Assembly: GCA_031386665.1 (NCBI GenBank)
Contig: JANNCN010000023.1
Location: 10,572-74,571, forward strand
Direction: 5' to 3'
DNA from: Rhodoferax sp.
GTDB lineage: Bacteria; Pseudomonadota; Gammaproteobacteria; Burkholderiales; Burkholderiaceae_C
Length of the DNA stretch: 64,000 nt
Shown here one piece after another: positions 27,047 to 58,209 of the stretch; within the stretch, counting starts at the first letter, position 1; every line of letters starts with the position of its first letter. The notes beneath the pieces are model-generated. The model ran no database searches. It was not told where the DNA came from and saw only the letters and a list, made by a program, of their open reading frames with translations. The position numbers were made by a program, and so were the translations under genes.

Positions 27047-28271
27047 CCCCCTAAAGCAAGCCCAAGGCCAAGCCCAAGCCAACTCAGCTGCCGACCCCGT
27101 TGTCATCGTCGGGGCCGCCCGTACGCCTATGGGTGGCTTTCAAGGCGATTTTTCGTCGCTGGCAGCGCACGATCTGGGTGGCGCTGCAATCAAAGCGGCC
27201 GTCGAACGTGCTGGCGTTGGTGCCAGTTTGGTGACTGAAGTGCTGTTTGGCAATTGCCTGATGGCTGGGCAGGGCCAGGCGCCCGCGCGGCAAGCGGTGT
27301 TCAAAGGCGGTTTGCCGATCAGCGCGGGCGCGGTTACCTTGTCCAAAATGTGTGGCTCTGGCATGAAGGCGGCTATGATGGCGCACGACATGCTACTGGC
27401 CGGCAGCCATGATGTGATGGTGGCAGGCGGTATGGAGAGCATGACCAACGCCCCACATTTGCTGCTGAAAGGGCGCAGTGGCATTCGCATTGGCCATGAC
27501 CGCGTGATGGACCACATGATGCTGGATGGGCTGGAAGATGCCTACGAGGCGGGTCGTTCCATGGGCACGTTTGGTGAAGACTGCGCGGCCAAATACAGCT
27601 TCACCCGCGCGCAGCAAGATGCGTTTGCCACCGCCAGCGTGCAGCGTGCACAAGCAGCCACCACGTCCGGCGCATTTGCCGCCGAGATCACGCCCGTGAC
27701 AGTCAAGGGCCGTGCTGGCGACACCGTGATTTCTATCGATGAAGGGCCAGGCAAGATCAAGCTGGACAAAATCCCTGCGTTGAAACCAGCGTTCAAAAAG
27801 GAAGGCACGATCACCGCAGCCAGCAGTTCCAGCATCAACGATGGCGCGGCCGCGATGGTGCTGATGCGGGCATCAACCGCGGCCAAACTGGGCCTGAAAC
27901 CGCTGGCCAAAATTGTGGCCCACGGCACGCATGCGCAAGAACCCAACTGGTTTGCCACAGCCCCGCTCGGTGCCGTGAACAAGGTCTTGGCCAAAGCGGG
28001 CTGGTCGGTGAAAGACGTGGATCTGTGGGAAGTGAATGAGGCCTTCGCTGTGGTGCCCATGGCCCTGATGCACGAACTGAAGTTAGGCCACGACATTGTG
28101 AATGTGAACGGCGGTGCTTGCGCTTTGGGTCACCCGATTGGTGCCAGTGGCGCGCGCATCATGGTGACTTTGATGTACGCCCTGAAGGCCCGCGGGCTGA
28201 AAAAAGGCGTAGCCACCCTGTGCATTGGTGGCGGCGAGGGAACCGCCGTTGCGATTGAAATGCTGGGATGA
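27039..28271 (+). CDS. Acetyl-CoA C-acetyltransferase (thiolase II)
   Basis: [46 protein letters not shown] 27039 follows GAGGAG and overlaps the aceK stop. Confidence 0.9.
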
Positions 28272-44172: not shown

Positions 44173-45828
44173 ATGGCAACAACGGCTATCGACAAGCCCA
44201 TGTCGCAGACCGACAAGACGGTGATTTTCGCGTCTTCCCTCGGCACGATATTTGAGTGGTACGACTTCTATCTCTTTGGCGTGATGTCCGCCATCATCGC
44301 CGCCAACTTTTTCTCTGCGCTTGACGAAAGCACCCGCAACATCTTCGTGTTGCTGGCGTTTGCGGCTGGTTTTGCGGTTCGTCCCTTTGGCGCTTTGGTG
44401 TTCGGTCGCCTGGGCGACATGATTGGTCGCAAATACACGTTCCTGATCACCATTGTGATCATGGGCTTGGCAACCTTCCTGGTGGCGTTTTTACCCACCT
44501 ACAAATCGGCGGGCATCATTGCTCCCATCATGCTGATTGCGCTACGCATGTTCCAAGGTTTGGCTTTGGGCGGCGAGTACGGTGGTGCAGCCACCTACGT
44601 GGCAGAGCATGCGCCTCATGGCAAACGCGGTTTCTACACTTCGTGGATTCAAACCACAGCCACGGTCGGATTGATGCTGGCCTTGATGGTGATCCTTGGC
44701 GTTCGCACGTACTTTGGCGAAAAAGAGTTTGCTGAGTGGGCCTGGCGCGTTCCCTATGCACTGTCGGGCATTTTGTTGATCGTATCGATCTGGATTCGCC
44801 TGAAATTGAACGAGTCCCCTGCGTTTGCCAAAATGAAGGCCGAAGGCAAGACTTCCAAGTCACCCCTGTCAGAGTCATTTGGTCAGTGGAAAAACCTCAA
44901 GATCGTGATCTTGGCCCTGATCGGCCTGACTGCTGGTCAAGCAGTGGTTTGGTATACAGGTCAGTTCTATGCCTTGTTCTTCTTGCAAACCTTCCTGAAG
45001 GTTGACGGCCCAACAGCCAACGTGTTGATCGCTGTGTCCTTGATCATCGGCACGCCTTTCTTCATCTTCTTTGGTTCGCTGTCTGACAAGATTGGTCGCA
45101 AGCCCATCATCATGGCGGGTTGCTTGTTGGCCTTGGCGACCTACTTCCCGCTGTTCAACGCGTTGACGACTTATGCCAATCCCAAGTTGCAGGCAGCAAT
45201 CCAAAAATCTCCTGTCACTGTGGAGTCTGATGCGGCCAACTGCGGACTGATCCTGAATTTGACAGGTACCGCCAAGTTCACCAATGCCTGTGACCTGGCC
45301 CGGGTTTACCTCTCCAACGCAGGTATCAACTACGACAGCGTGACAAAACCAGGCGCTGTTGCCACCGTGAAGGTAGGCGACAAGGCCATTGCCAGCTACG
45401 ATGCCAAGGCACCCACGGCCAAGGAAGACAAAGCCCGGTTCGAGAAGGAAGTGCGTGAAGCGCTCAACACGGCGGGCTACCCTGCCAAGGCAGATCCAAT
45501 TCCGCTGGGATCCAGCAATTGGCTGATGTTGGTGGCGATTTTGACCATCCTCGTGATTTACGTGACGATGGTGTACGGGCCAATCGCAGCCATGCTGGTT
45601 GAAATGTTCCCAACCCGAATCCGCTACACATCGATGAGCTTGCCTTACCACATTGGCAACGGCTGGTTTGGCGGTTTCCTGCCAGCCATTTCGTTCTCAA
45701 TCGTTGCTGCGCAAGGTAACATTTACAGCGGTCTTTGGTACCCCATCATCATTGCAGCCATGACATTCGTTATCGGCGTGATCTTTGTCAAGGAAACCAA
45801 AGACGTTGACATTTACGCTAAGGATTAA
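44173..45828 (+). CDS. MFS transporter, metabolite:H+ symporter (MHS) family with large central loop
   Basis: FEWYDFYLFG and GRLGDMIGRK MHS motifs. GGAGA RBS before ATG 44173. Confidence 0.9.
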   Translation: MATTAIDKPMSQTDKTVIFASSLGTIFEWYDFYLFGVMSAIIAANFFSALDESTRNIFVLLAFAAGFAVRPFGALVFGRLGDMIGRKYTFLITIVIMGLATFLVAFLPTYKSAGIIAPIMLIALRMFQGLALGGEYGGAATYVAEHAPHGKRGFYTSWIQTTATVGLMLALMVILGVRTYFGEKEFAEWAWRVPYALSGILLIVSIWIRLKLNESPAFAKMKAEGKTSKSPLSESFGQWKNLKIVILALIGLTAGQAVVWYTGQFYALFFLQTFLKVDGPTANVLIAVSLIIGTPFFIFFGSLSDKIGRKPIIMAGCLLALATYFPLFNALTTYANPKLQAAIQKSPVTVESDAANCGLILNLTGTAKFTNACDLARVYLSNAGINYDSVTKPGAVATVKVGDKAIASYDAKAPTAKEDKARFEKEVREALNTAGYPAKADPIPLGSSNWLMLVAILTILVIYVTMVYGPIAAMLVEMFPTRIRYTSMSLPYHIGNGWFGGFLPAISFSIVAAQGNIYSGLWYPIIIAAMTFVIGVIFVKETKDVDIYAKD

Positions 45829-45847
45829 TCCTAGGCTTGTTGACACG

Positions 45848-45872
45848 AAGGCCCCTCCTGGGGCCTTTTTTT
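45848..45872 (+). terminator. Rho-independent terminator
   Basis: AAGGCCCC TCCT GGGGCCTT followed by a T-run. Confidence 0.7.
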
Positions 45873-45888
45873 ATGATCGGAGATGGAC

Positions 45889-47219: not shown

Positions 47220-47470
47220 TGAATTTCCAGCTTTAACGGCAATACAGTCGCCAACCGCAAAGCGCCTCTACCGGCTGCCAAAGCACAGTTCTCTCTGAAA
47301 ATCGACGACTCAAAAAAGTTCTCCTATTTGAATTTGACATTCGAGAAGGCCAGGTGCCCAAAAGAACTTGGGTGGCGTTGGAATTGATCGCAGAACCTCC
47401 AACTTGAACCGATCGCTGTCTAGAATGTTAGTCCTTTGCCCGATCCGTATCAACCCCAGTAAGTAATTTC

Positions 47471-50400
47471 ATGCCTCAGGGAATCATTCGAATTCGCGGT
47501 GCCCGTCAGCACAACCTAAAAAACCTCGATCTGGACATCCGCACGGGCGAATTGACCGTGGTGACAGGGCCCAGTGGTTCCGGCAAGTCAAGCCTGGTGT
47601 TCGACACGCTTTTCGCCGAAGGCCAAAGGCGCTACGTCGAAACTTTCTCGGCTTACGCGCGGCAGTTTTTAGACCGGATGGACAAACCCGCGGTGGATCG
47701 CGTGGATGGGGTGCCGCCCGCGATTGCGATTGACCAAACCAACCCGGTTCGATCGTCACGCTCGACGGTCGGCACCATGACCGAGTTGAACGACCACCTG
47801 AAGCTGCTATTCGCCCGCGCCGCACACTTGTTTGACCGAGACACCGCACGGCCAGTGTGCCACGACACGCCAGAGAGCATTTATGCCGAGTTGCAGGCTC
47901 GGTCTGCCAGCAATTCGGAGATGCGCCTTGCCATCACCTTTTCAGTCGAGTTGCCCGCCAGCGCAACGGCTGAAGAGGTTGAGCAATGGCTGTCGGTGAG
48001 TGGCTTCACGAAGGTTCAAGCGCAACGTGAGGTGGCGTCTGTCACTGGACCACGCAAAGTGATTGACGTGGTGGCCGACCGGTTTCGTTTGAGCGGCGTG
48101 GAGCGCGGTCGCGCGATTGAAGCCATTGAAGTCGCACTAAAGCACGGCAGCGGAAGGCTGTCTGTGTATGCGCTGGGCAGTGGCACTGATGCCACGTCTG
48201 ACATCTGGCGTTTTTCGACAGGCTTGCACTGCGCCGATAGCGACATTCGCTACACCGATCCCATTGCGTCCATGTTCTCGTTCAATTCTGCCGTGGGAGC
48301 CTGCGAAACCTGCCGGGGCTTTGGTCGAGTGATCGGTGTGGACTATGGCTTGGTCATTCCCAATGACAAGTTGACCTTGCGCGCCGGGGCGATCAAGCCC
48401 ATGCAAACTCCGGCCTGGAAAGAATGCCAAGGCGACCTGATGCGCCATGCGGAAAGCGCTGGCATTCCACGCGACACCGCCTGGAACAAGCTCACGCCCG
48501 AGCACCAACGCTGGGTTATCAACGGCTCGCCCAATTGGAATGGCAAGTGGAACCAGCACTGGTTTGGTATCAAACGTTTCTTTGAATACCTGGAAACTAA
48601 GGCCTACAAAATGCACATTCGCGTGCTGCTGTCCAAGTACCGCAGTTACACGCCGTGCGGCACTTGCGGCGGCGCTCGACTGAAGACGGACAGCCTGTTG
48701 TGGCGCTTGGGCAGCAAGGCCGAAGCCGACAGTGTTTTGGCCGCGAACCTTCGCCAATTGCCCCAGGGTGCCAAGTGGAGCCGCGAGCAACTGGAAGTCC
48801 TGCCAGGTCTGAATTTACACGATTTGATGCTGCTGCCCATTGATCGCCTCAGGCGGTTTTTTAGCGCCATGCAGACACAGCAAACAGATTTGACCCTGGG
48901 TGCAAAATCGAATTCAGAAAAGCCAAGTCAGGGCGAAGCGCAGGCGCTGAAACTGCTGTTTGAAGAAATCACGACGCGGCTCAAATACCTGTGCGATGTG
49001 GGCATTGGCTACCTGACGCTGGATCGCCAAAGCCGCACGCTCTCAGGCGGCGAAGTGCAACGGATCAATCTGACCACGGCGCTCGGTACCTCTTTGGTCA
49101 ACACGCTCTTCGTGCTGGATGAGCCCAGTATCGGTTTGCACCCGCGCGACATGCACCGCATTATTGAGGCCATGCATCGCTTGCGCAACGCAGGCAACAC
49201 GCTGGTGGTGGTGGAACACGACCCAGCGGTCATGTTGGCGGCAGATCGCATGATTGACATGGGGCCTGGGCCCGGCGAGCGCGGTGGGCAAATTGTGTTT
49301 GACGGCACGACGCAAGACCTGCGACAAGCCAACACCCTCACGGGGGTCTACTTGGGCGGACGCAAGCATGTTGGCCTGGGCTTCAAACGCCTAGTGGCTG
49401 ACAACACACCGCGTTTGATTTTGGAGAAGGCGTCTGACCACAATTTGAAGAACGTTACCGTCGAATTCCCATTGCAGCGGCTGGTGTGCGTCACGGGCGT
49501 CAGCGGTTCAGGCAAGTCAACGCTGATTCAAGACGTGCTGGCCCCCGCTTTGTTGCGCCACTTTGGCAAAGCCACAGAAACCCCGGGCGCGCATGAGCGG
49601 CTGCTGGGCGCGGACCATCTGAGTGAAGTGGTGTTTGTCGATCAGTCGCCGATTGGCAAAACTGCACGCTCCAACCCGGCAAGCTACGTCGGCGCTTGGG
49701 ATGCGATTCGAGAGATTTTTGCGAACGCTTACTTGGCTCGCCAGCGAAGCTACACCGCCAGCAAGTTCAGCTTTAACAGTGGCGATGGGCGCTGCCCGAC
49801 CTGCGGCGGCTCGGGCTTTGAGCACGTCGAAATGCAATTTTTAAGCGACGTTTACCTGCGCTGCCCAGACTGCGATGGCAAACGCTACCGGCCAGAGATT
49901 TTGGAAGTCATGATTGAGCGGCGCTCGGCGTTGGACGCGCGGCTGATCAGCCTGAACGTGGCTGACGTGCTGAACCTGACCGTGAGCGAAGCCGCACTGG
50001 TTTTCGAAAAAGACCGTGACGTGATTCGCGCCTTGCAGCCCATCGTTGATGTTGGCTTGGAGTACGTCAAATTGGGCCAACCCGTTCCCACGCTGTCGGG
50101 CGGGGAAGCCCAGCGTCTCAAACTGGCCGGGTTTCTGGCCGAGGCAGCCAAATCGTCAAGCGCCAGCCGCCAGGGCGTGGGGCGTCGGGGGACCTTGTTC
50201 ATGTTTGATGAGCCCACCACCGGCCTGCACTTTGACGACATCGCCAAACTGATGCGGGCCATGCGCAAACTACTGGATGCGGGCAATTCCTTGATCGTGA
50301 TTGAACACAACCTGGATGTGATTCGCGCCAGTGATTGGTTGATTGACCTGGGGCCAGAAGGCGGGGATGCAGGTGGTGAAATCGTGGCGGTGGGCACGCC

Positions 50401-50590
50401 TGACGACGTGAAGCTGCATTTGACGTCGCACACGGGCCGAGCGCTGCGCGACTATGAGCAGGCGCTGGGGGCGGGGTCGCACCAGGCGCAGGAACACGGA
50501 GTGAATTGGCAACTGGGTCAGGGGTTGAAATTGGGGTCAGATCGCAATTTTTCTGCGCAGCACCCGCAGGGTCGTCAAAAGGACGAGTAA
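47471..50590 (+). CDS. uvrA: UvrA-like ABC ATPase, module 1 of a tandem UvrA-UvrA frame (ends at TAA 50588-50590)
   Basis: IRIRGARQHNLKNL, two Walker A motifs (GPSGSGKSS, GVSGSGKST), two LSGGE(V/A)QR signatures, Cys clusters CETCRGFG / CGTCGGARL and CPTCGGSG / CPDCDGKRY. Confidence 0.85.
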   Translation: MPQGIIRIRGARQHNLKNLDLDIRTGELTVVTGPSGSGKSSLVFDTLFAEGQRRYVETFSAYARQFLDRMDKPAVDRVDGVPPAIAIDQTNPVRSSRSTVGTMTELNDHLKLLFARAAHLFDRDTARPVCHDTPESIYAELQARSASNSEMRLAITFSVELPASATAEEVEQWLSVSGFTKVQAQREVASVTGPRKVIDVVADRFRLSGVERGRAIEAIEVALKHGSGRLSVYALGSGTDATSDIWRFSTGLHCADSDIRYTDPIASMFSFNSAVGACETCRGFGRVIGVDYGLVIPNDKLTLRAGAIKPMQTPAWKECQGDLMRHAESAGIPRDTAWNKLTPEHQRWVINGSPNWNGKWNQHWFGIKRFFEYLETKAYKMHIRVLLSKYRSYTPCGTCGGARLKTDSLLWRLGSKAEADSVLAANLRQLPQGAKWSREQLEVLPGLNLHDLMLLPIDRLRRFFSAMQTQQTDLTLGAKSNSEKPSQGEAQALKLLFEEITTRLKYLCDVGIGYLTLDRQSRTLSGGEVQRINLTTALGTSLVNTLFVLDEPSIGLHPRDMHRIIEAMHRLRNAGNTLVVVEHDPAVMLAADRMIDMGPGPGERGGQIVFDGTTQDLRQANTLTGVYLGGRKHVGLGFKRLVADNTPRLILEKASDHNLKNVTVEFPLQRLVCVTGVSGSGKSTLIQDVLAPALLRHFGKATETPGAHERLLGADHLSEVVFVDQSPIGKTARSNPASYVGAWDAIREIFANAYLARQRSYTASKFSFNSGDGRCPTCGGSGFEHVEMQFLSDVYLRCPDCDGKRYRPEILEVMIERRSALDARLISLNVADVLNLTVSEAALVFEKDRDVIRALQPIVDVGLEYVKLGQPVPTLSGGEAQRLKLAGFLAEAAKSSSASRQGVGRRGTLFMFDEPTTGLHFDDIAKLMRAMRKLLDAGNSLIVIEHNLDVIRASDWLIDLGPEGGDAGGEIVAVGTPDDVKLHLTSHTGRALRDYEQALGAGSHQAQEHGVNWQLGQGLKLGSDRNFSAQHPQGRQKDE

Positions 50591-50625
50591 ATTTGGGCTC
50601 TGCCCCCAATTTCGACCCCTGACCC
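50515..50625. repeat. Composite palindromic element in the UvrA inter-module linker
   Basis: The 36/37-nt arms (50515-50550 and 50589-50625) differ by 4 mismatches and 1 indel, with a 38-nt spacer. TAA overlaps the inner edge of the right arm. Confidence 0.75.
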
Positions 50626-50689
50626 TGACTCGAACCCAGCCGCCAACGCCATCCAGATCATCAACGCCAAAGAGCACAACCTCAAGTCT

Positions 50690-53488
50690 TTGAGCGTCAA
50701 CATTCCACGCGGCAAATTCAACGTGGTCACGGGGGTGAGCGGCTCGGGAAAGTCCACCCTGGCGTTTGACATTTTGTTCAACGAAGGTCAGCGCCGCTAT
50801 TTGGAGTCGCTCAATGCCTACGCCCGCAGCATCGTGCAACCTGCGGGCAGGCCTGAAGTTGACGCGGTGTACGGCATTCCGCCAACGGTGGCAATAGAGC
50901 AGCGGCTGTCTCGCGGCGGGCGCAAAAGTACGGTCGGCACCACCACCGAGGTGTGGCACTTTTTGCGCCTGCTGTATGTGAAGCTGGGCACCCAGCATTG
51001 CATTCACGATGGCGCTGCCGTGGCCCCCCAAACGCCTGACAGCATCGCCGCGCAACTTCTCAAAAGCTTTCGGGGGCAGCACATTGGTTTGCTGAGTCCG
51101 TTGGTGATGAACCGCAAAGGCGTGTACACAGAACTGGCCGACTGGGCGCGCCCGCGCGGCTTCACCCACCTGCGGGTGGATGGCAACTTTTTGCCCACCA
51201 CCAATTTCCCGCGCATTGATCGCTTCAAAGAACACACGATTGAGCTGCCTGTGGCCAGTTTTGACGTGCTGCCTGACAAAGAATCGCGTCTGCGCGAAGC
51301 ACTGGCCAGTGCTCTGGTGCATGGTAAGGGCGTTGTGCATGTGCTCAGCGATTTGGGTGCCCTGCGTGCGGCAATGTTGGCGGGTACGCCCACGGCTGCC
51401 GTTGGCAAGCTCGATGTTTTTTCAACCAAGAGGGCCTGCCCGGTTTGCAGCACCAGCTATGCCGAGCTGGACCCGCGCCTGTTCAGTTACAACAGCAAAC
51501 ATGGGTGGTGCCCAGACTGCGTGGGCACGGGCGTCAAGCTGACCAAAGAGCAGCGCAAGGTGTTCGACGACTCGGTGAAAGACGATGACAACAAGGGCCG
51601 CGAGCAAACCTTTGCCGAACCCGAGGTCGAAGATCTGGTAGATGCCGCTTGCCCCACCTGCCACGGCGCCCGCCTGAACGCCAACGCTCGTGCGGTCACA
51701 TTCGCGAAAGTCGGCATCACGGACATTGCACGTTTGAGCGTGACCGACATCCGCAAATGGGTCGAGACGCTGCAAGCGGCGGGCGGTATGTCGTCGCGCG
51801 AAACCGACATTGCCCGAGACTTGATTCCCGAGATCAAAAGCCGCCTGGCGTTTTTAGAAGAAGTTGGGCTGGGCTACCTCACGCTAGACCGTGGTGCGCC
51901 CACGTTAAGCGGTGGCGAAGCCCAGCGTATTCGCCTAGCAGCCCAGTTGGGTAGCAACCTGCAAGGCGTGTGCTACGTGCTGGACGAGCCGACCATTGGC
52001 CTGCATGCGCGGGACAACAAAATTTTGCTGAGCGCCCTGCAAAGTTTGAGCGAAAAAGGCAACACCTTGGTGGTGGTGGAACATGATGTAGACACCATTC
52101 GCCATGCCGATCACATCATCGATATTGGCCCCAGCGCGGGCAAGCGCGGCGGGCGGCTGGTGGCCGAGGGTTCGGTGGCCGACATTCAAAACGCCGCCGA
52201 ATCGCAAACTGGCCGCTACTTGCTGCACGCGATGAAGCACCCGGTGCAAGCGCGCAGAGCCGTGATCTGGCCACCAGTCGAAGTCGGTCCATTGAAATTG
52301 CGGTCAGAGCCCAAATTCGCCGCACCTTTGGTGCGCCCTTTGGGTAAAGCGCTTCGCACTTCAGCGAAATTGCGATCTGCCCCCAATTTGGCCGCCGGCG
52401 ACCCCAGTTCCATCGCGGTGTCAAAACCGGCCTGGCTCACCGTTCAGTCCGCCAATTTGCACAACCTGCAGTCCGTCACCGCCAACATCCCCCTGCAGCG
52501 CCTGGTCGCCATTACGGGCGTGTCCGGCTCTGGCAAGTCAACGCTAGCCCGCGATGTGATGCTGGCCAACGTGCAAACTGCTGTTCAAAAACGCAGTACC
52601 AAAGCCGGTCGCGATGCGATTGCTGCAGGTGAAAAATTCAATTGGGTGGGCTGCCAAGGCGTCGAGGGATTTGAGGTGGTTGACCGCGTGCTCGAGGTCG
52701 ATCAAACGCCAATTGGGAAAACCCCGCGCAGTTGCCCCGCCACCTACATCGGCTTTTGGGACATCATTCGCAAGCTCTTTGCCGATACGCTAGAGGCCAA
52801 AGCACGTGGCTACGCAGCTAACCGGTTCAGCTTTAACACGGGCGAAGGTCGCTGCCCGAGTTGTGAGGGCCAAGGCATTCGCACCATCGCCATGAGTTTT
52901 TTGCCCGATGTGAAAGTGCTGTGCGAAACCTGCCGCGGCGCCCGGTTTAATCCCGAGACGCTGGCCGTCACCTGGCGCGGCAAAAACATTGGCGACGTGC
53001 TGCAAATGGAAGTTGACGAAGCGGTCGATTTTTTTGCCGCCATGCCCAACATCGGCCATCCCGTGCAGTTGCTCAAAGACGTGGGGTTGGGGTATTTGAC
53101 GTTGGGGCAACCATCGCCCACGCTGTCGGGCGGTGAAGCGCAGCGCATCAAGTTGGTGACCGAACTTAGCAAAGTGCGTGACGACATCACCAGGCGCGGC
53201 CAAAAGCCGCCGCACACCTTGTACGTGCTGGACGAGCCGACGGTGGGCCTGCACATGGCAGACGTTGAAAAGCTGATCAAAGTGCTTCACCGCCTGGTCG
53301 ATGGCGGCCACAGCGTGGTGGTGATTGAGCATGACCTGGACGTCATCGCCGAAGCCGATTGGGTGATTGACTTGGGACCCGACGGTGGCAATGCGGGCGG
53401 TCAGATTGTGGCGGCAACCACGCCCGAGAAGGTGGTGAAACTGGGAACGCACACGGGCGTCGCGCTGAAGGCGGTCTTGGCCAGATGA
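50690..53488 (+). CDS. uvrA: UvrA-like ABC ATPase, module 2 (same frame as module 1; conserved N-terminus extends upstream to 50591 with no canonical start)
   Basis: Two GVSGSGKST, two LSGGEAQRI, CPVCS..CPDCVGTG, CPTCHGARL, CPSCEGQG..CETCRGARF. The upstream in-frame sequence encodes AIQIINAKEHNLKSL. Confidence 0.75.
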   Translation: MSVNIPRGKFNVVTGVSGSGKSTLAFDILFNEGQRRYLESLNAYARSIVQPAGRPEVDAVYGIPPTVAIEQRLSRGGRKSTVGTTTEVWHFLRLLYVKLGTQHCIHDGAAVAPQTPDSIAAQLLKSFRGQHIGLLSPLVMNRKGVYTELADWARPRGFTHLRVDGNFLPTTNFPRIDRFKEHTIELPVASFDVLPDKESRLREALASALVHGKGVVHVLSDLGALRAAMLAGTPTAAVGKLDVFSTKRACPVCSTSYAELDPRLFSYNSKHGWCPDCVGTGVKLTKEQRKVFDDSVKDDDNKGREQTFAEPEVEDLVDAACPTCHGARLNANARAVTFAKVGITDIARLSVTDIRKWVETLQAAGGMSSRETDIARDLIPEIKSRLAFLEEVGLGYLTLDRGAPTLSGGEAQRIRLAAQLGSNLQGVCYVLDEPTIGLHARDNKILLSALQSLSEKGNTLVVVEHDVDTIRHADHIIDIGPSAGKRGGRLVAEGSVADIQNAAESQTGRYLLHAMKHPVQARRAVIWPPVEVGPLKLRSEPKFAAPLVRPLGKALRTSAKLRSAPNLAAGDPSSIAVSKPAWLTVQSANLHNLQSVTANIPLQRLVAITGVSGSGKSTLARDVMLANVQTAVQKRSTKAGRDAIAAGEKFNWVGCQGVEGFEVVDRVLEVDQTPIGKTPRSCPATYIGFWDIIRKLFADTLEAKARGYAANRFSFNTGEGRCPSCEGQGIRTIAMSFLPDVKVLCETCRGARFNPETLAVTWRGKNIGDVLQMEVDEAVDFFAAMPNIGHPVQLLKDVGLGYLTLGQPSPTLSGGEAQRIKLVTELSKVRDDITRRGQKPPHTLYVLDEPTVGLHMADVEKLIKVLHRLVDGGHSVVVIEHDLDVIAEADWVIDLGPDGGNAGGQIVAATTPEKVVKLGTHTGVALKAVLAR
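52294..52393. repeat. Second copy of the palindromic element, in frame inside UvrA module 2
   Basis: GAAATTGCGGTCAGAGCCCAAATTCGC (52294-52320) and the reverse complement of 52364-52393 (GGCCAAATTGGGGGCAGATCGCAATTTCGC) share the unit found at 50531-50550 and 50589-50615. Confidence 0.7.
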
Positions 53489-53527: not shown

Positions 53528-54325
53528 CTAGCTCGCAACCTTCCGCTTTCGATCCATAAACGCTTTCATGTACCGCTGCGGTTCCCCCGTGGCAAAGGCG
53601 CGGCCAAATTCAGGCACGGTGGCTTCAATCGCCGCATCGGGCGGCAGACTTTGCCAACTGCGCATCAACTGCTTTTGTTGGCGCAAAGCGGCGGGGCCAA
53701 AACCTGCCAGTTTGGCAGCCAAAGTTGCAATGCGAATGTCGAGTTGATCCACCGCATCTATTGGGCAAACTTCATGCACCAAACCCCAGTTCAGGGCGGT
53801 GGAAGCGTCGATGATTTCACCGGTTATCAGCAGCCAGGTGGCGCGCGAATGCCCAATTAGCAAAGGCAGCAGCACGGCGTGAATCACCGACGGAATTCCC
53901 ACCGCGACCTCGGGCATGCCAAAGCGTGCGTCGGCACGACAGATGCGCAAATCACAAGCCAGCGCCACCTCCAGGCCTCCGCCCAGGGTGTAGCCCGACA
54001 GACGCGCAATCACGGGGGCGGGAAAACTGCGCACAGCCTCGCACAGGTTTTTCAAACGGGTAATAAAAGCTTCGGCTAAGGGCGGCGTCAGCTTGGCCAT
54101 TTCGTTGATATCGGCACCGCCTATGAAGGCCTTGTCGCCATCACCGCGCAAGATCAACACCTTCACATCGCCGCGCGCGCTTAAGTTGTGCAAGGCGGCA
54201 GTCAGTTCCAAGATCGCAGCGGTGCCGACAATGTTGAGCGTTTTGGCATTACGCAAACTCAGTGTGGCGACACCTTGGTCCGTTAGCGTGGCCAGGGTTT
54301 GGTGGGTTTCAATCAGCAGGGTCAT
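53528..54325 (-). CDS. Enoyl-CoA hydratase/isomerase family protein
   Basis: Crotonase fold (VLILRGDGDKAFIGGADINEM, GYTLGGGLEVALACD). Confidence 0.85.
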   Translation of the reverse strand: MTLLIETHQTLATLTDQGVATLSLRNAKTLNIVGTAAILELTAALHNLSARGDVKVLILRGDGDKAFIGGADINEMAKLTPPLAEAFITRLKNLCEAVRSFPAPVIARLSGYTLGGGLEVALACDLRICRADARFGMPEVAVGIPSVIHAVLLPLLIGHSRATWLLITGEIIDASTALNWGLVHEVCPIDAVDQLDIRIATLAAKLAGFGPAALRQQKQLMRSWQSLPPDAAIEATVPEFGRAFATGEPQRYMKAFMDRKRKVAS

Positions 54326-54334
54326 GGGGCAAGC

Positions 54335-55423
54335 CTACCAGTCGACCAGGCTCAAGCCGATGCTCAGCGTGGTGCGGTGCCGGTTGTAGTCCAGCAAACT
54401 GTCGCCAAAGCCGCTGAAAACTTGGGTGTGGAAGCGCAAACCGTTGCGGCCGTTGCGCGGGTCGGTGTCGCCAAAGCTTTTCAACCACTCGAGCTTGAAT
54501 GAGCCGTTGGCCGTGCTGCCCAGTGAGTGGCGCACGGTGATGCCCAGGGTATTGAAGGCGTTCACGTCCCAAAAGCCTGCCAGTTCGGCGCGGCCAATTT
54601 TGTCGGCGATTTCGGGGTTGTCATCGTCAGCGCCCTTTTCTGGCAGGCGCTGCCAAAGCCGTGCGGTCATGCGCAAATTGTGGCCGTTTTCCATGCCCGC
54701 CATCAGCACTGTGCGGTTCCAACTGCGCGACAGGGGCAGGGCCTGTCCGTTGGACTGGTGCACCACGCTGATACCGCTGTAACGCAAGCGCCAGCCACCC
54801 GGCAAATCGGCTTCGGAAGGGTAGATGTAGGTGATCTCGGGCTCGTGGTCGGTGTTGCGAAACGGGCGCGACAGCTCGCTGTTGAACAGCTGCCAATACG
54901 ATTGCTGGGTGTAGCCAAACCAGAGTGAGTCGCGCAGGCGGTCATTGCCCTGGGTCAGCAAACCCGAGGCAATTTTGGTGCGCACCGACAGTTGAATGCG
55001 AGTTTCAACCTGGCTGTAGGGCGTGGCCACCAAGGCAGTGTGCCCCGCTGTAGGGGACGACGGTTGGGTGTTCACGCCGTCCGATGCAATGACTGACAGG
55101 CTCAATGGGTGGTAGCCGCGAATGCCAAAGGTGCCGCAGTCGCTGCCCGACTCCAGCTCCCAAAAGCGCGAAAGATTGGAGAGCTTGGGGCTTTTGCACT
55201 CGCGCAGATCGGTCGCCCGGCCCGTTGGGGGAGTGGGTGTGGGCGTTGGGCTGGACGCATTGGAAGCGGCCGCGCTCGGTGTACCTTGATCCGTCTGAGC
55301 CCCCGCTGTTCCCGTCGCCCCAAAGAGGACGAGCACCCCCAAGGCGATCAGCCCCTTCAGTCCCAACCCGCAGATTTTCGAAGGACGAATTTGTGACTTG
55401 TGCTGTTGCTGAAGTTGTTCCAT
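54335..55423 (-). CDS. pldA: Outer-membrane phospholipase A (OMPLA)
   Basis: YHPLSLS, LWFGYTQQSYWQ, VVHQSNG (catalytic His-Ser), SWNR, C-terminal beta-barrel ending LSLVDW. Start uncertain (an internal TTG would reduce the 67-nt overlap). Confidence 0.85.
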   Translation of the reverse strand: MEQLQQQHKSQIRPSKICGLGLKGLIALGVLVLFGATGTAGAQTDQGTPSAAASNASSPTPTPTPPTGRATDLRECKSPKLSNLSRFWELESGSDCGTFGIRGYHPLSLSVIASDGVNTQPSSPTAGHTALVATPYSQVETRIQLSVRTKIASGLLTQGNDRLRDSLWFGYTQQSYWQLFNSELSRPFRNTDHEPEITYIYPSEADLPGGWRLRYSGISVVHQSNGQALPLSRSWNRTVLMAGMENGHNLRMTARLWQRLPEKGADDDNPEIADKIGRAELAGFWDVNAFNTLGITVRHSLGSTANGSFKLEWLKSFGDTDPRNGRNGLRFHTQVFSGFGDSLLDYNRHRTTLSIGLSLVDW

Positions 55424-55923
55424 GTTCCGCTTATTTCTTTACCGCAAGACCCCGCCACAACCTGGCCCGTCCAGGTGGCTGAAATCGATTTTCCGTCGTT
55501 TGATTCTTCTAGCGCCAAGACACCATTGTCCACGTCGCCCGCGCACTGCGATTTGACGTTGCCGCGCTGAATGCTGCCCATCACGCTGCCAGACAGCTCG
55601 GGGTGCTTTTCGAAGCGCAGGGTGACAGGTTGGGGCGCTGTCGGAGACCCGGTTGGACTGGCGCTTTTAGGGCTGCCTTCAACCTCGCCCCGCCACAATC
55701 CATAAAGATGTATGGGTTCGACTTGGTCGGGGCTGGGGCAGACCGCAGGTTTGGAAAGGGGCGCGACAGTTTGCGCCAGTGCCAATTTGGCGAATGGGCC
55801 TGTGAACGCGGTGACGAGCAAAACGGCTGAAACAAAGGCAAAGACAAAGGCAAACGGAATTTTCAAAAAAATTCGCGCCCTAGTTTTCAAAGCGCTGGGG
55901 GACAGAAGGTTGATCTGCGTCAT
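55357..55923 (-). CDS. Hypothetical secreted protein
   Basis: N-terminal signal-like hydrophobic segment. ATGA overlap with the rep stop. No family recognised. Confidence 0.55.
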   Translation of the reverse strand: MTQINLLSPSALKTRARIFLKIPFAFVFAFVSAVLLVTAFTGPFAKLALAQTVAPLSKPAVCPSPDQVEPIHLYGLWRGEVEGSPKSASPTGSPTAPQPVTLRFEKHPELSGSVMGSIQRGNVKSQCAGDVDNGVLALEESNDGKSISATWTGQVVAGSCGKEISGTWNNFSNSTSHKFVLRKSAGWD

Positions 55924-58058
55924 GGCGACTTTGCCAATGCAGCCGTGTCCGCCTCATCGCGTGACTGTTGTGAGGTTTGCGCTTTTTTGGCAAATTCGGC
56001 GCGCAAGGCCTTGAGTTTTTCACGCGGGTCTTCGCGCACCGTGGCTTTGTCCAAACCCATTTCTGCAATGAAGCGGCTGGGTAGGGCTGCCACCATTTCG
56101 CGGCCCTTTTTACGTTTGCGCACCCAGCTCACTGCCAGGCTGCGCTGCGCCCGGGTGATGCCTACATACATCAGGCGGCGCTCCTCCTCCAGGCGCTCTT
56201 GCAGGTTGTCGCCTTCCAGTTTGAACGGCAGCATGCCTTCGATCACGCCGACCAGCATCACGTGCGGCCACTCAAGCCCTTTGGCAGCGTGCAAGGTACT
56301 CAAGGTCACCACATTTTGGTCGGTTTCCCGCTCAGAAATGGTGGACAACAGCGACACCGTTTGAGCCACGTCCAGTAGAGATTTCACCTCGTTCATGCTA
56401 TTGGCACCCGCCATATCGTCAATCTGGCCGCCGCAGCGCCCTGCCATCCAATCGCAAAAATCCATCACATTGGACCAACGCGCTGCCGCCAGTTTTTCGC
56501 TGTCTTCGCCGTCGTACAGGTGTTTTTCGTAGCCAATTTCTTTCAGCCAATCCAGCAAGAATTCTTTGGCAGCTTCTGCGCCGATGGTATGGCGGGCGCG
56601 AAACTCCAGATCATTCACGTACCTGCCAAATTCGTGCAAACTGCCAACGGCTTTAGCGCTCAAACTACTGCCAAGCGAGGGCGAAAAAAGCGCCTCAAAC
56701 AAGCTGACTTTGTAGGCCGATGAAAACCCGCCCAACTGCTGCAAAGTCTGGTGGCCAATGCCGCGTTTGGGGGTGGTCACGGCGCGCAAAAAAGCTGGGT
56801 CGTCATTGTTGTTGATCCACAGCCTGAACCAACCGCACAGGTCCTTGATTTCAGCCCGGTCAAAAAAGCTGGTGCCGCCCGACACCTTGTACGGAATTTG
56901 CGCTTTGCGCAGGGCTTTCTCGAACGGTTTGGCCAAATGGTTGGCGCGGTACAGCACGGCAAAGTCTCTGAACTCTTTGTGTTGACTGGCCGCAGGGGCA
57001 CCGGTTGCACCACCGGCAATCACCTCAGTACCCGCGCGCAGGCTTTGGATGCGCGCCACAGTGCGCTCGGCCTCATGCTCTTCGCTGTCGGCATCGACCG
57101 CGCGCACGGGTTCGCCTTCGCCCAAATCGCTCCACAAATTCTTAGGAAAGAGCTTGGGGTTGGGGCCAATCACGTTGTTGGCCGCGCGCAAAATCGCACC
57201 GGTCGATCGGTAGTTTTGCTCTAGCTTGATGACTTTCAGCGCGGGGAAGTCGAGGGGCAGTCTTTTTAGATTGTCCAAGGTGGCACCGCGCCAGCCGTAA
57301 ATGCTTTGGTCGTCGTCGCCCACGGCAGTAAACCGCGCACCGCTGGCCGGGTTGCCGCCCACCAGCAGTTTCAAAAATTCGTACTGCGTGGCGTTGGTGT
57401 CCTGGTACTCATCCACCAGCACGTGCCCCGCCAGCGACTGCCACTTTTGGCGCACGGTTTCATGGTTTTGCATCAGCTTCAGGGGCAGGCTGATCAGGTC
57501 GTCAAAGTCGACGCTTTGGTAGGCGGTCAGCCGTTCTTCGTAGCGCGCCATCACGCGGGCGGCAATTTTTTCGGAGTCGTCCTTTGCCAGCGCTTCGGAC
57601 TGCGCAGCGTTCAGCCCCATGTTCTTCCACAGGCTGATTTGCCACTGCCATGACCGCGCTGTCGCCGCGTCGGTCGTGCCGCCCGCGTCTTTCAAAATGC
57701 TGGTCACGTCGTCGCTGTCCAGAATCGAAAAATTGGGTTTCAGGCCCAGTGCCTGTCCGTCAGCTCGCATCATGCGCACGCCCAACGCATGAAAAGTGCA
57801 AACCACCACGTTTTTGGCCACCTTGCCAATCAGCCCCTTGGCCCGCTCGCGCATTTCAGCCGCCGCTTTGTTGGTGAAGGTGATGGCAAAAATGCGCTGC
57901 GGCTCCAACCCCATTTGAATCAAACGCCCCACTTTGTGCGTGATCACCCGCGTTTTGCCCGACCCCGCCCCCGCCAGCACCAAACACGGGCCGTGCATGT
58001 AGTTCACGGCCTCTTGCTGGGCGATGTTGAGACTGAGGGCGGGGGCAAGAGACGACAT
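55920..58058 (-). CDS. rep: ATP-dependent DNA helicase Rep (UvrD/Rep superfamily 1)
   Basis: GPCLVLAGAGSGKTRVIT, TFTNKAAAEMRER, VLVDEYQDTN, TLHAAKGLEW. Start at ATG 58058 (MSSLAP). Confidence 0.9.
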   Translation of the reverse strand: MSSLAPALSLNIAQQEAVNYMHGPCLVLAGAGSGKTRVITHKVGRLIQMGLEPQRIFAITFTNKAAAEMRERAKGLIGKVAKNVVVCTFHALGVRMMRADGQALGLKPNFSILDSDDVTSILKDAGGTTDAATARSWQWQISLWKNMGLNAAQSEALAKDDSEKIAARVMARYEERLTAYQSVDFDDLISLPLKLMQNHETVRQKWQSLAGHVLVDEYQDTNATQYEFLKLLVGGNPASGARFTAVGDDDQSIYGWRGATLDNLKRLPLDFPALKVIKLEQNYRSTGAILRAANNVIGPNPKLFPKNLWSDLGEGEPVRAVDADSEEHEAERTVARIQSLRAGTEVIAGGATGAPAASQHKEFRDFAVLYRANHLAKPFEKALRKAQIPYKVSGGTSFFDRAEIKDLCGWFRLWINNNDDPAFLRAVTTPKRGIGHQTLQQLGGFSSAYKVSLFEALFSPSLGSSLSAKAVGSLHEFGRYVNDLEFRARHTIGAEAAKEFLLDWLKEIGYEKHLYDGEDSEKLAAARWSNVMDFCDWMAGRCGGQIDDMAGANSMNEVKSLLDVAQTVSLLSTISERETDQNVVTLSTLHAAKGLEWPHVMLVGVIEGMLPFKLEGDNLQERLEEERRLMYVGITRAQRSLAVSWVRKRKKGREMVAALPSRFIAEMGLDKATVREDPREKLKALRAEFAKKAQTSQQSRDEADTAALAKSP

Positions 58059-58209
58059 AGGAGCCAGTTGTTTGCAGCTGAATGGAAGGCGAGCCAGCAA
58101 ACCGGAATCTGCGCGAATTGGCAATGTTCGAATCATACCCAGCGCCCTGCGATGCCGATTTCACGTTGTGACTTCGAATTGGCGCAAAAATACCGACGAA
58201 AATCGAGCC

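What the first reader, a model, noticed from the sequence alone, without database searches (positions are those of the whole stretch)
47471..53488. Tandem UvrA-UvrA (four-NBD, ~2,005-codon) reading frame broken by one in-frame TAA
ORFs 47471..50590 and 50690..53488 are in the same frame. After the TAA at 50588-50590 the frame stays open and reads IWALPPISTPDPDSNPAANAIQIINAKEHNLKSLSVNIPRGKFNVVTGVSGSGKST. AIQIINAKEHNLKSL is the conserved strand that precedes Walker A in UvrA (module 1: IIRIRGARQHNLKNL; E. coli UvrA from memory: IEVRGARTHNLKNI). No ATG or GTG occurs between the TAA and the TTG at 50690 used by the ORF track, and that TTG would delete this strand. Module 2 therefore has no credible start of its own. 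The locus reads as a single gene with 4 Walker A and 4 LSGGExQR motifs, interrupted by a single stop. The two modules are not equivalent: module 1 has a long segment between its first two Cys clusters, and module 2 has a short one. Possible explanations are a recent pseudogene, a split gene with non-canonical re-initiation (AAGGA 50579-50583, then ATT 50591 or CTG 50600), stop readthrough, or a sequence error.
Basis: partly seen in the sequence, partly recalled or inferred. Interest (0 to 1): 0.7.

Follow-up and report, generated by a model that had tools for sequence, protein, structure and literature searches.

The report
Flipped palindrome breaks a double uvrA gene
A normally single, double-length DNA-repair gene (two UvrA units fused in one chain) is cut in two here by one stop codon, which sits in a small hairpin-forming repeat in the flexible linker that lies in the opposite orientation to its closest relative; the break is very recent or an artefact, not a new kind of gene.

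Summary
Positions 47471-53488 form one frame of 2006 codons with a single internal TAA (50588-50590), four Walker A motifs and four LSGGExQR motifs. There is no in-frame ATG, GTG or TTG before TTG 50690, and that start would remove the conserved first strand of module 2.

The fusion is the normal state. All 120 best protein hits are single chains of 1908-2328 aa (Rhodoferax and other Comamonadaceae, named UvrA). None of about 100 related loci has a stop in the linker.

New here: the TAA lies in an 85-nt hairpin-forming doublet of a 23-nt palindrome. This doublet is inverted relative to the closest relative (92% identity as reverse complement, 74% in the same orientation). Flipping it in silico removes the stop and reproduces the relative's linker peptide. 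Module 2 shows dN/dS of about 0.01 on the window's branch, so the break is very recent, tolerated, or an assembly or population artefact. Only one draft contig carries it.

The same palindrome occurs 42 times inside uvrA genes of 22 relatives and never in 756 kb of flanking DNA. That enrichment is unexplained.

The gene family is known; the break is ordinary apart from the flip.

The parts
47471..50590 (+). Module 1 of the tandem uvrA gene (1039 codons plus TAA). It is a full UvrA unit with two ABC ATPase sites, an insertion domain (about aa 278-399, nt 48302-48667) and a degenerate UvrB-binding-domain region (aa 130-254).
   Evidence: TIGR00630 915 bits; PF17755 39.2 bits; PF17760 only 22.8 bits (cut-off 23.3). 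It aligns with 2r6f over residues 6-994.
50588..50590 (+). The in-frame TAA, the only interruption of the 2005-codon frame.
   Evidence: It is the first codon of the right arm of the inverted repeat. It disappears when the element is inverted in silico. The equivalent codon in the flipped L001 element is AAA.
50515..50625 (.). Palindromic element in the inter-module linker. It has 40-nt arms (50515-50554 and 50586-50625, 85% complementary, 31 nt between them). It is built from two 23-nt units (50528-50550 and 50590-50612) and a 39-nt spacer (50551-50589).
   Evidence: -71.4 kcal/mol, z = -5.3; the only inverted repeat of this kind in the 64 kb; the one other pair listed is a 26-nt self-overlapping palindrome at 27829-27870, 73% complementary.
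50591..53488 (+). Module 2 reading frame (965 codons plus stop). UvrA homology starts at 50648. It has a strong UvrB-binding domain (nt 51029-51346) and no insertion domain.
   Evidence: TIGR00630 968 bits; PF17760 87.4 bits. dN/dS on the window branch is 0.010.
50579..50593 (+). Candidate re-initiation site: AAGGA (50579-50583), a 7-nt gap, then ATT 50591 directly after the stop. This is speculative.
   Evidence: anti-SD duplex -5.3 kcal/mol, but 15% of random window positions do as well. ATT is a non-canonical start.
50690..50692 (+). First canonical in-frame start (TTG) after the stop. It is the start used by the gene call on record for this contig (932-aa product P0510).
   Evidence: It lies 14 residues inside the conserved core and has weak SD complementarity (-2.1 kcal/mol).
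52295..52389 (.). Second copy of the palindromic doublet (units at 52295 and 52367), in frame in the linker between the two ATPase halves of module 2. It is stop-free in both orientations.

Best explanation
This is the tandem (double) uvrA gene typical of Rhodoferax and other Comamonadaceae. It is normally one polypeptide of about 1900-2300 aa in which two non-identical UvrA units are joined by a hypervariable linker. By inference, the single chain plays the part of the usual UvrA dimer, the damage sensor of nucleotide excision repair. The N-terminal unit keeps the insertion domain but has a degenerate UvrB-binding domain. The C-terminal unit keeps the UvrB-binding domain but lacks the insertion domain.

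In this window the frame is broken by one TAA inside an 85-111-nt hairpin-forming doublet of a 23-nt palindrome that sits in frame in the linker. Relative to the closest relative, the whole doublet is inverted. Read on the flipped strand, the frame meets TAA; read in the other orientation, the linker is open. The stop is therefore a by-product of a small hairpin-associated inversion (or an opposite-orientation insertion) plus a one-base difference, in a segment under no protein-level constraint.

Shown: the fusion is the universal state, the element is inverted, flipping restores the ORF, and module 2 has been under strong purifying selection along nearly the whole branch.

Inferred: the event is very recent. 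Its consequence is either a fresh loss of function or a two-chain UvrA, in which module 1 is made as a 1039-aa protein and module 2 only through inefficient re-initiation or readthrough.
For: Fusion is the norm: 120 of 120 best hits are 1908-2328 aa; 64 loci open for at least 986 codons upstream, 14 more open across the junction, 0 of 80 with a linker stop; 20 of 20 metagenome loci open across the junction; no other complete gene call among the shorter products on record ends in the linker; P0407 does, but it is a partial call on a 4,553-bp contig; the intact orthologue scores 1907.6 against the PRK00349 cut-off of 1147.

The stop lies in a palindrome.

Inversion: reverse complement of window 50528-50612 against L001 6070-6154 is 78/85 identical, against 63/85 in the same orientation; spacer 85% against 62%; inversion at any symmetric breakpoints from 50505/50635 to 50552/50588 gives zero stops and the linker ...KLGAEPKFTRPFDDPAGAAQKNCDLTPIS..., against L001's ...KLGSEPKFSRPSADPSGAAQKNCDLTPIS...; L001 flipped in silico reads ...KLGSDRNFSAQHPRGRPKDEKIWALTPIS..., matching the window's ...KLGSDRNFSAQHPQGRQKDE*IWALPPIS....

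Recency or retained function: (module 2 core on the window branch: S = 67, N = 2, dN/dS = 0.010, with about 206 nonsynonymous changes expected if neutral; module 1 is 0.037).

The linker tolerates anything: (26-107 aa in 115 orthologues).

The hairpin is a real property of the element family: (94% of cells paired, 8 pairs with compensatory changes, 0 of 500 shuffles reach this).

Other genes look intact: (9 of 9 checked).
Against: Only one assembly carries this sequence (P0242 and P0510: one member each, one 77.6-kb contig, no names). Neither the flip nor the T at 50588 is independently confirmed, and no reads are available.

The direction of change cannot be polarised, because only the window and L001 share this doublet.

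The flanks of the element differ between the two: the window has 6 extra nt on each side. Two independent insertions in opposite orientations are therefore not excluded.

Nothing shows whether module 2 is translated. The SD-like AAGGA is no better than 15% of random positions.

Whether this is the only uvrA of the genome was not tested.
Confidence: 0.6

Rival explanations
1. Assembly or consensus artefact. The organism really has an intact 2005-codon gene, and the flipped orientation and/or the T at 50588 comes from mis-assembly of a palindrome, an amplification chimera, or a minority variant captured in a metagenome-derived consensus.
For: The sequence exists in one draft contig only (77,594 bp). 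Close relatives come from MAG projects. Palindromes are error-prone. Module 2 shows no relaxation at all. This long gene appears broken elsewhere in a few other assemblies (L012, L071, L088; several truncated products on long contigs).
Against: The arms are only 85% complementary, with perfect runs of at most 11 nt. The whole element is 111 nt, so ordinary 150-nt reads or large k-mers would span it and fix its orientation. The flipped copy differs from L001's at 7 of 85 positions, like the rest of the gene, as expected for real divergence. Nine neighbouring genes look intact.
Confidence: 0.25
2. Functional split. The stop is real and tolerated, because the break falls in the disordered linker between two complete UvrA units. 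Module 1 terminates at TAA, and ribosomes re-initiate nearby (ATT 50591, 7 nt after AAGGA; or CTG 50600). The two chains then associate like an ordinary UvrA dimer.
For: UvrA normally works as a dimer of separate chains (established knowledge; PDB 2r6f, 9gxk matched). The break is exactly between the modules. dN/dS is 0.010 in module 2. An SD-like AAGGA lies at ideal spacing and ATT abuts the stop. In-frame stops in bacterial genes often keep a low dN/dS (PMC7918605).
Against: No canonical start precedes the conserved core. The SD match is weak (15% of random sites match as well). ATT and CTG initiate poorly (general knowledge). No relative is split in this way. A low dN/dS is equally expected if the stop is simply very young. 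An untranslated 2.9-kb tail would be exposed to Rho-dependent polarity (general knowledge).
Confidence: 0.15
3. Programmed intragenic inversion switch. The doublet flips back and forth within a population, toggling uvrA between a single-chain ON form and a truncated or split form, like premature-stop intragenic invertons.
For: Inverted repeats lie wholly inside the gene. The two orientations are seen in two close relatives. One orientation is open and the other has a stop placed between folding units. Intragenic invertons of the premature-stop type that separate domains are described (bioRxiv 10.1101/2023.03.11.532203).
Against: Both orientations have not been seen in one population. The invertible segment (about 85 nt) is very short for invertase-mediated synapsis. 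No invertase was looked for or found. The flipped L001 copy would be open (AAA), so the stop is not intrinsic to the orientation. Stop-freeness of other doublets in both orientations is not more than palindromy predicts.
Confidence: 0.06
4. Stop-codon readthrough restores a full-length chain at useful levels.
For: Few UvrA molecules per cell suffice in E. coli (general knowledge). Widespread short-lived in-frame stops have been interpreted as read through (PMC7918605).
Against: TAA is the least leaky stop, and that paper's examples of leakiness concern TGA. No recoding signal or Rfam family lies at the site. No relative has a stop here.
Confidence: 0.03

Closest known systems
Canonical class I UvrA homodimer (E. 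coli, G. stearothermophilus, T. maritima; PDB 2r6f, 3pih, 9gxk)
   Same: Each module is a complete UvrA unit with two ABC ATPase sites, signature motifs and Cys clusters. Both score above the TIGR00630 cut-off, and both align end to end with solved UvrA structures.
   Different: Two non-identical units (34-42% identity) sit in one reading frame. Only module 2 has a good UvrB-binding domain, and only module 1 has the insertion domain.
Double-length 'excinuclease ABC subunit UvrA' of Rhodoferax, Curvibacter, Acidovorax and Variovorax (for example the 2098-aa protein of R. ferrireducens T118, P0096)
   Same: It is the orthologue: 74-91% identity over the whole 2005 aa, with downstream synteny to the closest relative L001 (enoyl-CoA hydratase, phospholipase A1, UvrD-like helicase).
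   Different: The window copy alone carries a stop in the inter-module linker.
Chlamydia-type double UvrA (NCBIfam PRK00635, 1809 aa)
   Same: It is also a tandem UvrA with four nucleotide-binding sites.
   Different: Scores are far below the curated cut-off (534, 546 and, for the intact orthologue, 1081 bits against 3054). It is a separate lineage of tandem UvrA.
Class II UvrA (UvrA2, DrrC, Ecm16)
   Same: Module 1 resembles it in having poor UvrB-binding-domain and first-zinc-module signatures (class definition from PMC9328131).
   Different: The segment is still present at full length (aa 130-254 aligns with 2r6f), and module 1 is covalently paired with a class-I-like unit.
REP doublets / REPINs, and hairpin-associated minute inversions
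   Same: There is an imperfect 23-nt palindrome, with two copies in inverted orientation 45-72 nt apart forming a long hairpin. Complementarity is kept by compensatory changes. The hairpin-bounded segment is inverted between relatives.
   Different: The element was found only inside one gene (42 hits in uvrA ORFs, 0 in 756 kb of flanks), not in intergenic DNA. No associated transposase was examined.
Rickettsia palindromic elements (in-frame selfish DNA in coding genes; PMC10969869)
   Same: A palindromic element inserted in frame is read as peptide in several frames (KLGSDPNF, NWGQTPI, EIGVRS) and is tolerated in surface or linker regions.
   Different: RPEs hit many unrelated genes; this element is so far specific to one gene and belongs to a different lineage (Comamonadaceae).
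Premature-stop intragenic invertons (bioRxiv 10.1101/2023.03.11.532203)
   Same: Inverted repeats lie inside a gene, and one orientation introduces a stop between folding units.
   Different: Reversibility within a population and an invertase are not shown. The segment is much shorter than typical invertons.

Membership tests
UvrA (TIGR00630 / PRK00349 equivalog) | Score above the curated whole-protein cut-off | tested here: met
   TIGR00630: 915.2 bits (module 1) and 967.6 bits (module 2) against 729.8. PRK00349 (cut-off 1147) is not reached by either half alone (923.9, 989.9), but the intact orthologue P0001 reaches 1907.6.
UvrA (class I) | Two ABC ATPase sites per unit (Walker A, LSGGQ-type signature, H-loop) | tested here: met
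   four Walker A motifs, four LSGGExQR motifs and four VxEH[DN] motifs, two of each per module.
UvrA (class I) | UvrB-binding domain (PF17760) | tested here: inconclusive
   Module 2: 87.4 bits over the full profile, so met. Module 1: 22.8 bits against a cut-off of 23.3, partial match, and only C130 and C254 at the first zinc module.
UvrA (class I) | Insertion (DNA-binding) domain between the second pair of CxxC motifs (PF17755) | tested here: inconclusive
   Module 1: 39.2 bits, with a 118-residue CxxC spacing, so met. Module 2: no match, a 47-residue spacing, and the region is missing in the alignment to 9gxk, so not met.
UvrA (class I) | Dimerises, senses DNA damage and loads UvrB | not testable with these tools
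   Inferred from homology only.
Comamonadaceae-type tandem UvrA | One uninterrupted ORF of about 1900-2300 codons spanning both modules | tested here: not met
   The window has TAA at 50588-50590. Relatives are uninterrupted at the junction. Sequence orthology itself is met (74-91% identity, about 100% coverage).
Chlamydia-type double UvrA (PRK00635) | Score above the curated cut-off of 3054 bits | tested here: not met
   534.1, 545.6 and (P0001) 1081.4 bits.
REPIN / REP doublet | Two imperfect palindromic units in inverted orientation forming a hairpin | tested here: met
   19 pairs, 94.1% of cells paired, 8 pairs with compensatory changes, and 0 of 500 shuffles as high.
REPIN / REP doublet | Many copies, mostly intergenic | tested here: not met
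   There are 0 hits in 756 kb of flanking DNA and 0 in the other 58 kb of the window, against 42 hits in uvrA ORFs. Whole genomes could not be scanned.
REPIN / REP doublet | Cognate RAYT (Y1) transposase in the genome | not tested
   Only a 64-kb window was available, and not all of its ORFs were scanned.
Intragenic inverton (premature-stop type) | Inverted repeats within a gene, with one orientation giving a stop | tested here: met
Intragenic inverton (premature-stop type) | Both orientations coexist in one population; recombinase-dependent | not testable with these tools
   No reads are available. The two orientations are seen only in two different assemblies (window and L001).

The most novel reading that the evidence does not exclude
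The hairpin doublet in the linker is a reversible flip-flop, an intragenic inverton or hairpin-driven minute inversion. It would toggle the only UvrA of these bacteria between a single-chain form and a truncated or split form, giving phase-variable nucleotide excision repair. The family of palindromes that colonises only the variable loops of this one gene would be the substrate of that switching.
Probability: 0.07. Interest if true: 0.75.

Novelty: new variant of a known kind. Interest (0 to 1): 0.35.

Why it matters
The gene itself is a known, routinely annotated tandem UvrA, and an isolated in-frame stop in one draft contig is an ordinary event. Two things go beyond that.

First, the break has a specific cause: a small palindromic element read on the wrong strand. 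This shows how hairpin repeats sitting in frame in protein linkers can switch a long fusion protein into two pieces in one step. If the break is real, it is a natural test of whether a single-chain UvrA pseudo-dimer still works as two chains.

Second, a covarying hairpin repeat was found 42 times inside this one gene in 22 relatives and never in the surrounding DNA. This is not what REP-like or MITE-like elements normally do and deserves a genome-wide census. For annotation, the locus should be treated as one uvrA gene with an internal stop, not as two genes.

Tried and rejected
1. Old pseudogene: rejected. Module 2 core has S = 67 and N = 2 on the window branch. An apparent excess of nonsynonymous changes (dN/dS 0.12) came entirely from the module 2 internal linker, where another palindromic doublet is read differently.

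2. Plain AAA-to-TAA point mutation, taken from a same-strand alignment with L001: superseded. The same-strand alignment pairs non-orthologous units, and the element is inverted.

3. Linker 2 as a simple inversion of the relatives' linker 2: rejected. The in-silico flip does not reproduce their peptides.

4. Search for the same allele elsewhere:
- An exact pattern around the TAA in metagenome contigs gave 0 hits.
- A conserved 26-mer gave 20 loci, none from the same species and all open across the junction.
- The genome scan's best match was 95%.
- Look-ups of the window's own products returned no contig, although both products are in the protein collection as singletons.

5. A generic REP, plasmid or phage origin for the element: there was no match in plasmids or viral contigs, and none in the flanks.

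6. Internal promoter, terminator or known RNA family at the junction: none found.

7. Selection for doublets being open in both orientations: 13 of 16 are, but only the roughly 12-codon spacer differs between orientations, so this is not significant.

8. Literature on a named class of tandem UvrA in beta-proteobacteria: nothing was found in the held library. My recollection of a 'class III' UvrA remains unverified.

9. The second homologue search returned only proteins under 700 aa and was uninformative. The tool appears to limit hit length relative to query length.
Full report
**Observation**

Positions 47471-53488 on the + strand translate as one frame of 2006 codons. The frame has a single internal stop, TAA at 50588-50590, and a terminal stop at 53486-53488.

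Both halves are full UvrA units:
- TIGR00630 scores 915 and 968 bits against a curated cut-off of 729.8.
- There are four Walker A motifs, four LSGGExQR signatures and four H-loops.
- No in-frame ATG, GTG or TTG lies between the stop and TTG 50690.
- Alignment to solved UvrA structures puts the start of module 2 homology at nt 50648. AIQIINAKEHNLKSL aligns with the N-terminal strand of 9gxk and 2r6f. The TTG start would therefore remove 14 conserved residues.

**What the gene is**

A search with the conceptual 2005-aa product returned 120 best hits that are all single polypeptides. They are 1908-2328 aa long and 74-91% identical, nearly all with full-length coverage. They come from Rhodoferax, Curvibacter and other Comamonadaceae and are named excinuclease ABC subunit UvrA. 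One of them is the 2098-aa protein of R. ferrireducens T118.

The DNA evidence agrees:
- In 80 species-representative genomes, 64 are open for at least 986 codons upstream of module 2.
- Another 14 run off their contig but are open across the junction.
- Two have stops inside module 1.
- None has a stop in the linker.
- Twenty further metagenome loci are also open across the junction.

A library-wide profile-free search shows that double-length UvrA proteins form a very large and diverse group. The fusion is thus the ordinary, already annotated state. The intact orthologue P0001 passes NCBI's UvrA model at 1907.6 bits.

The two modules are 34-42% identical and complementary in domain content:
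- Module 1 has the insertion domain but only a marginal UvrB-binding-domain match.
- Module 2 has a strong UvrB-binding domain and lacks the insertion domain.

That the single chain acts as an asymmetric pseudo-dimer in nucleotide excision repair is an inference from homology.

**Where the stop sits**

The inter-module linker is hypervariable, ranging from 26 to 107 aa in 115 orthologues.

In the window the linker contains the only inverted repeat of this kind in the 64 kb. It has 40-nt arms at 50515-50554 and 50586-50625, 85% complementary, with 31 nt between them. It folds at -71.4 kcal/mol (z = -5.3). The TAA lies at the start of the right arm. The scan's one other pair is a 26-nt self-overlapping palindrome at 27829-27870, 73% complementary.

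The repeat is made of two copies of a 23-nt palindrome (consensus about AAATTGGGGTCAGACCCCAATTT) and a 39-nt spacer. A second such doublet sits in frame in the linker between the two ATPase halves of module 2, at 52295-52389.

**The key result**

The closest relative is L001 (P0001, a MAG), 91% identical in protein and 88-89% in DNA. It carries the same doublet in the same linker, but in the opposite orientation.
- The reverse complement of window 50528-50612 matches L001 6070-6154 at 78 of 85 positions without gaps.
- The same-strand comparison gives 63 of 85.
- For the spacer alone the figures are 85% and 62%.

Inverting the window element in silico, at any symmetric breakpoints from 50505/50635 to 50552/50588, removes the stop. 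The linker then reads ...KLGAEPKFTRPFDDPAGAAQKNCDLTPIS..., close to L001's native ...KLGSEPKFSRPSADPSGAAQKNCDLTPIS....

Conversely, flipping L001's element gives ...KLGSDRNFSAQHPRGRPKDEKIWALTPIS.... This is almost the window's native text, with Lys (AAA) where the window has TAA.

The stop is therefore the product of a flip plus a one-base difference. In the unflipped orientation that base would be a harmless Ser/Thr change. Only the window and L001 share this doublet, so the ancestral orientation cannot be assigned. Two independent insertions in opposite orientations are not excluded.

**Age of the break**

I used a four-taxon comparison of the window, L001 and two outgroups. On the window's own branch the results are:

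| Region | Synonymous changes | Nonsynonymous changes | dN/dS |
|---|---|---|---|
| Module 2 core | 67 | 2 | 0.010 |
| Module 1 core | 64.5 | 7.5 | 0.037 |

About 206 nonsynonymous changes would be expected in module 2 under neutrality. Module 2 has therefore not been a pseudogene for any appreciable time. The break is very recent, not real, or tolerated.

**Is it real?**

The window's own gene products are in the protein collection (P0242, 1039 aa; P0510, 932 aa from TTG 50690). Each is a singleton from one 77.6-kb NCBI contig without names. No independent assembly confirms the allele, and reads are not available.

Some points argue against a simple mis-assembly:
- The arms are imperfect, with perfect runs of at most 11 nt.
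- The element is short enough to be spanned by single reads.
- The flipped copy has diverged from L001's like the rest of the gene.
- Nine neighbouring genes look intact.

I put about 0.25 on an artefact or a minority variant.

**Can module 2 still be made?**

There is no promoter-like or terminator-like site and no known RNA family at the junction.

ATT 50591 abuts the stop and lies 7 nt after AAGGA. The predicted anti-SD pairing (-5.3 kcal/mol) is matched by 15% of random positions, and ATT is a poor initiator (general knowledge). Re-initiation after termination is possible but unproven.

TAA readthrough is expected to be very low (general knowledge; the leaky examples in PMC7918605 are TGA). 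That paper also reports that most in-frame stops in bacterial genes are short-lived polymorphisms with low dN/dS, which fits this case.

**The element family**

The 23-nt unit (4 or fewer mismatches) occurs 42 times in the uvrA ORFs of 22 related loci. The positions are the inter-module linker, the module 2 internal linker and several variable loops of module 1. One partial gene carries at least 7 units.

It does not occur in 756 kb of flanking DNA, of which 132 kb belong to the element-positive loci. It does not occur in the other 58 kb of the window either.

The unit is translated in all three frames and both orientations, so it is a DNA-level feature and not a protein motif.

Across 17 doublets the two units covary to keep a 19-pair hairpin:
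- 94.1% of cells are paired.
- 8 pairs have changes on both sides.
- 0 of 500 shuffles reach this value, and slid controls are far lower.
- There are almost no one-sided G-U changes, which points to DNA-level symmetry rather than RNA selection.

No copy was found in plasmids or viral contigs.

The architecture resembles REP doublets (REPINs), and the in-frame tolerance resembles Rickettsia palindromic elements (PMC10969869). The apparent restriction to one gene fits neither and remains unexplained.

**Comparison with known systems and verdict**

The gene is a member of the known tandem-UvrA group of Comamonadaceae, apart from the interrupted frame. It is not the Chlamydia-type PRK00635 family.

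The break resembles premature-stop intragenic invertons, which separate folding units (bioRxiv 10.1101/2023.03.11.532203). However, reversibility and a recombinase are not shown, and the segment is very short. I give that reading about 0.07.

The stop is most likely a very recent accident of a flipped palindromic element, or an artefact. The gene-specific hairpin repeat is the only unusual part.

Noticed in passing
window 50528-50550, 50590-50612, 52295-52317, 52367-52389; loci L001-L089 (22 element-positive loci): A 23-nt palindrome (about AAATTGGGGTCAGACCCCAATTT), usually as inverted doublets 45-72 nt apart, occurs 42 times (4 or fewer mismatches) inside tandem-uvrA ORFs. It never occurs in 756 kb of flanking DNA or in the other 58 kb of the window. 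The two units covary to keep a hairpin. The gene-specific enrichment is unexplained.
   Followed up: partly
L014 (uncultured Rhodoferax MAG, contig k141_1912961), whole 4.4-kb locus: One partial uvrA gene carries at least 7 palindrome units (three or more doublets) at different variable loops, all in frame. This is the densest case seen.
   Followed up: partly
window 47471-53488 (module 1 aa 130-254 and 278-399; module 2 nt 51029-51346 and 51509-51661): The two UvrA modules are complementary. Module 1 keeps the insertion domain but has a degenerate UvrB-binding domain and first zinc module. Module 2 keeps the UvrB-binding domain and lacks the insertion domain. The single chain would be an asymmetric pseudo-dimer with one copy of each accessory domain.
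   Followed up: partly
window 55920-58136 (- strand): A UvrD-type helicase gene (738 aa, PF00580 and PF13361) lies 2.4 kb downstream of uvrA. It comes after an enoyl-CoA hydratase (53528-54325) and a phospholipase A1 (54335-55423). The same order is seen in L001.
   Followed up: partly
L012 (UBA2176), L071 (UBA4409), L088 (JACCDY010046387.1): Three other assemblies have a stop inside module 1 of the tandem uvrA (345, 648 and 297 codons upstream of module 2). Several truncated products also sit on long contigs (for example P0302, P0312, P0305). This very long gene is broken fairly often in draft assemblies.
   Followed up: no
window 45799-45882 (+ strand): There is a weak Rfam match to the Rhizobiales sRNA Atu_C8 (31.4 bits, gathering score 50, E = 0.004). 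It is probably chance.
   Followed up: no
window 47430-47470: The genuine start of the tandem uvrA (ATG 47471) has almost no Shine-Dalgarno complementarity (-0.9 kcal/mol). This is weaker than the AAGGA upstream of the internal ATT 50591.
   Followed up: no
L082/L084 (metagenome relatives P0002/P0003), inter-module linker: These outgroups have a single palindrome unit (read as NWGQTPI or NWGQNPI) where the window and L001 have a whole doublet nested in the centre of that unit. This suggests insertion into the palindrome's own centre.
   Followed up: partly
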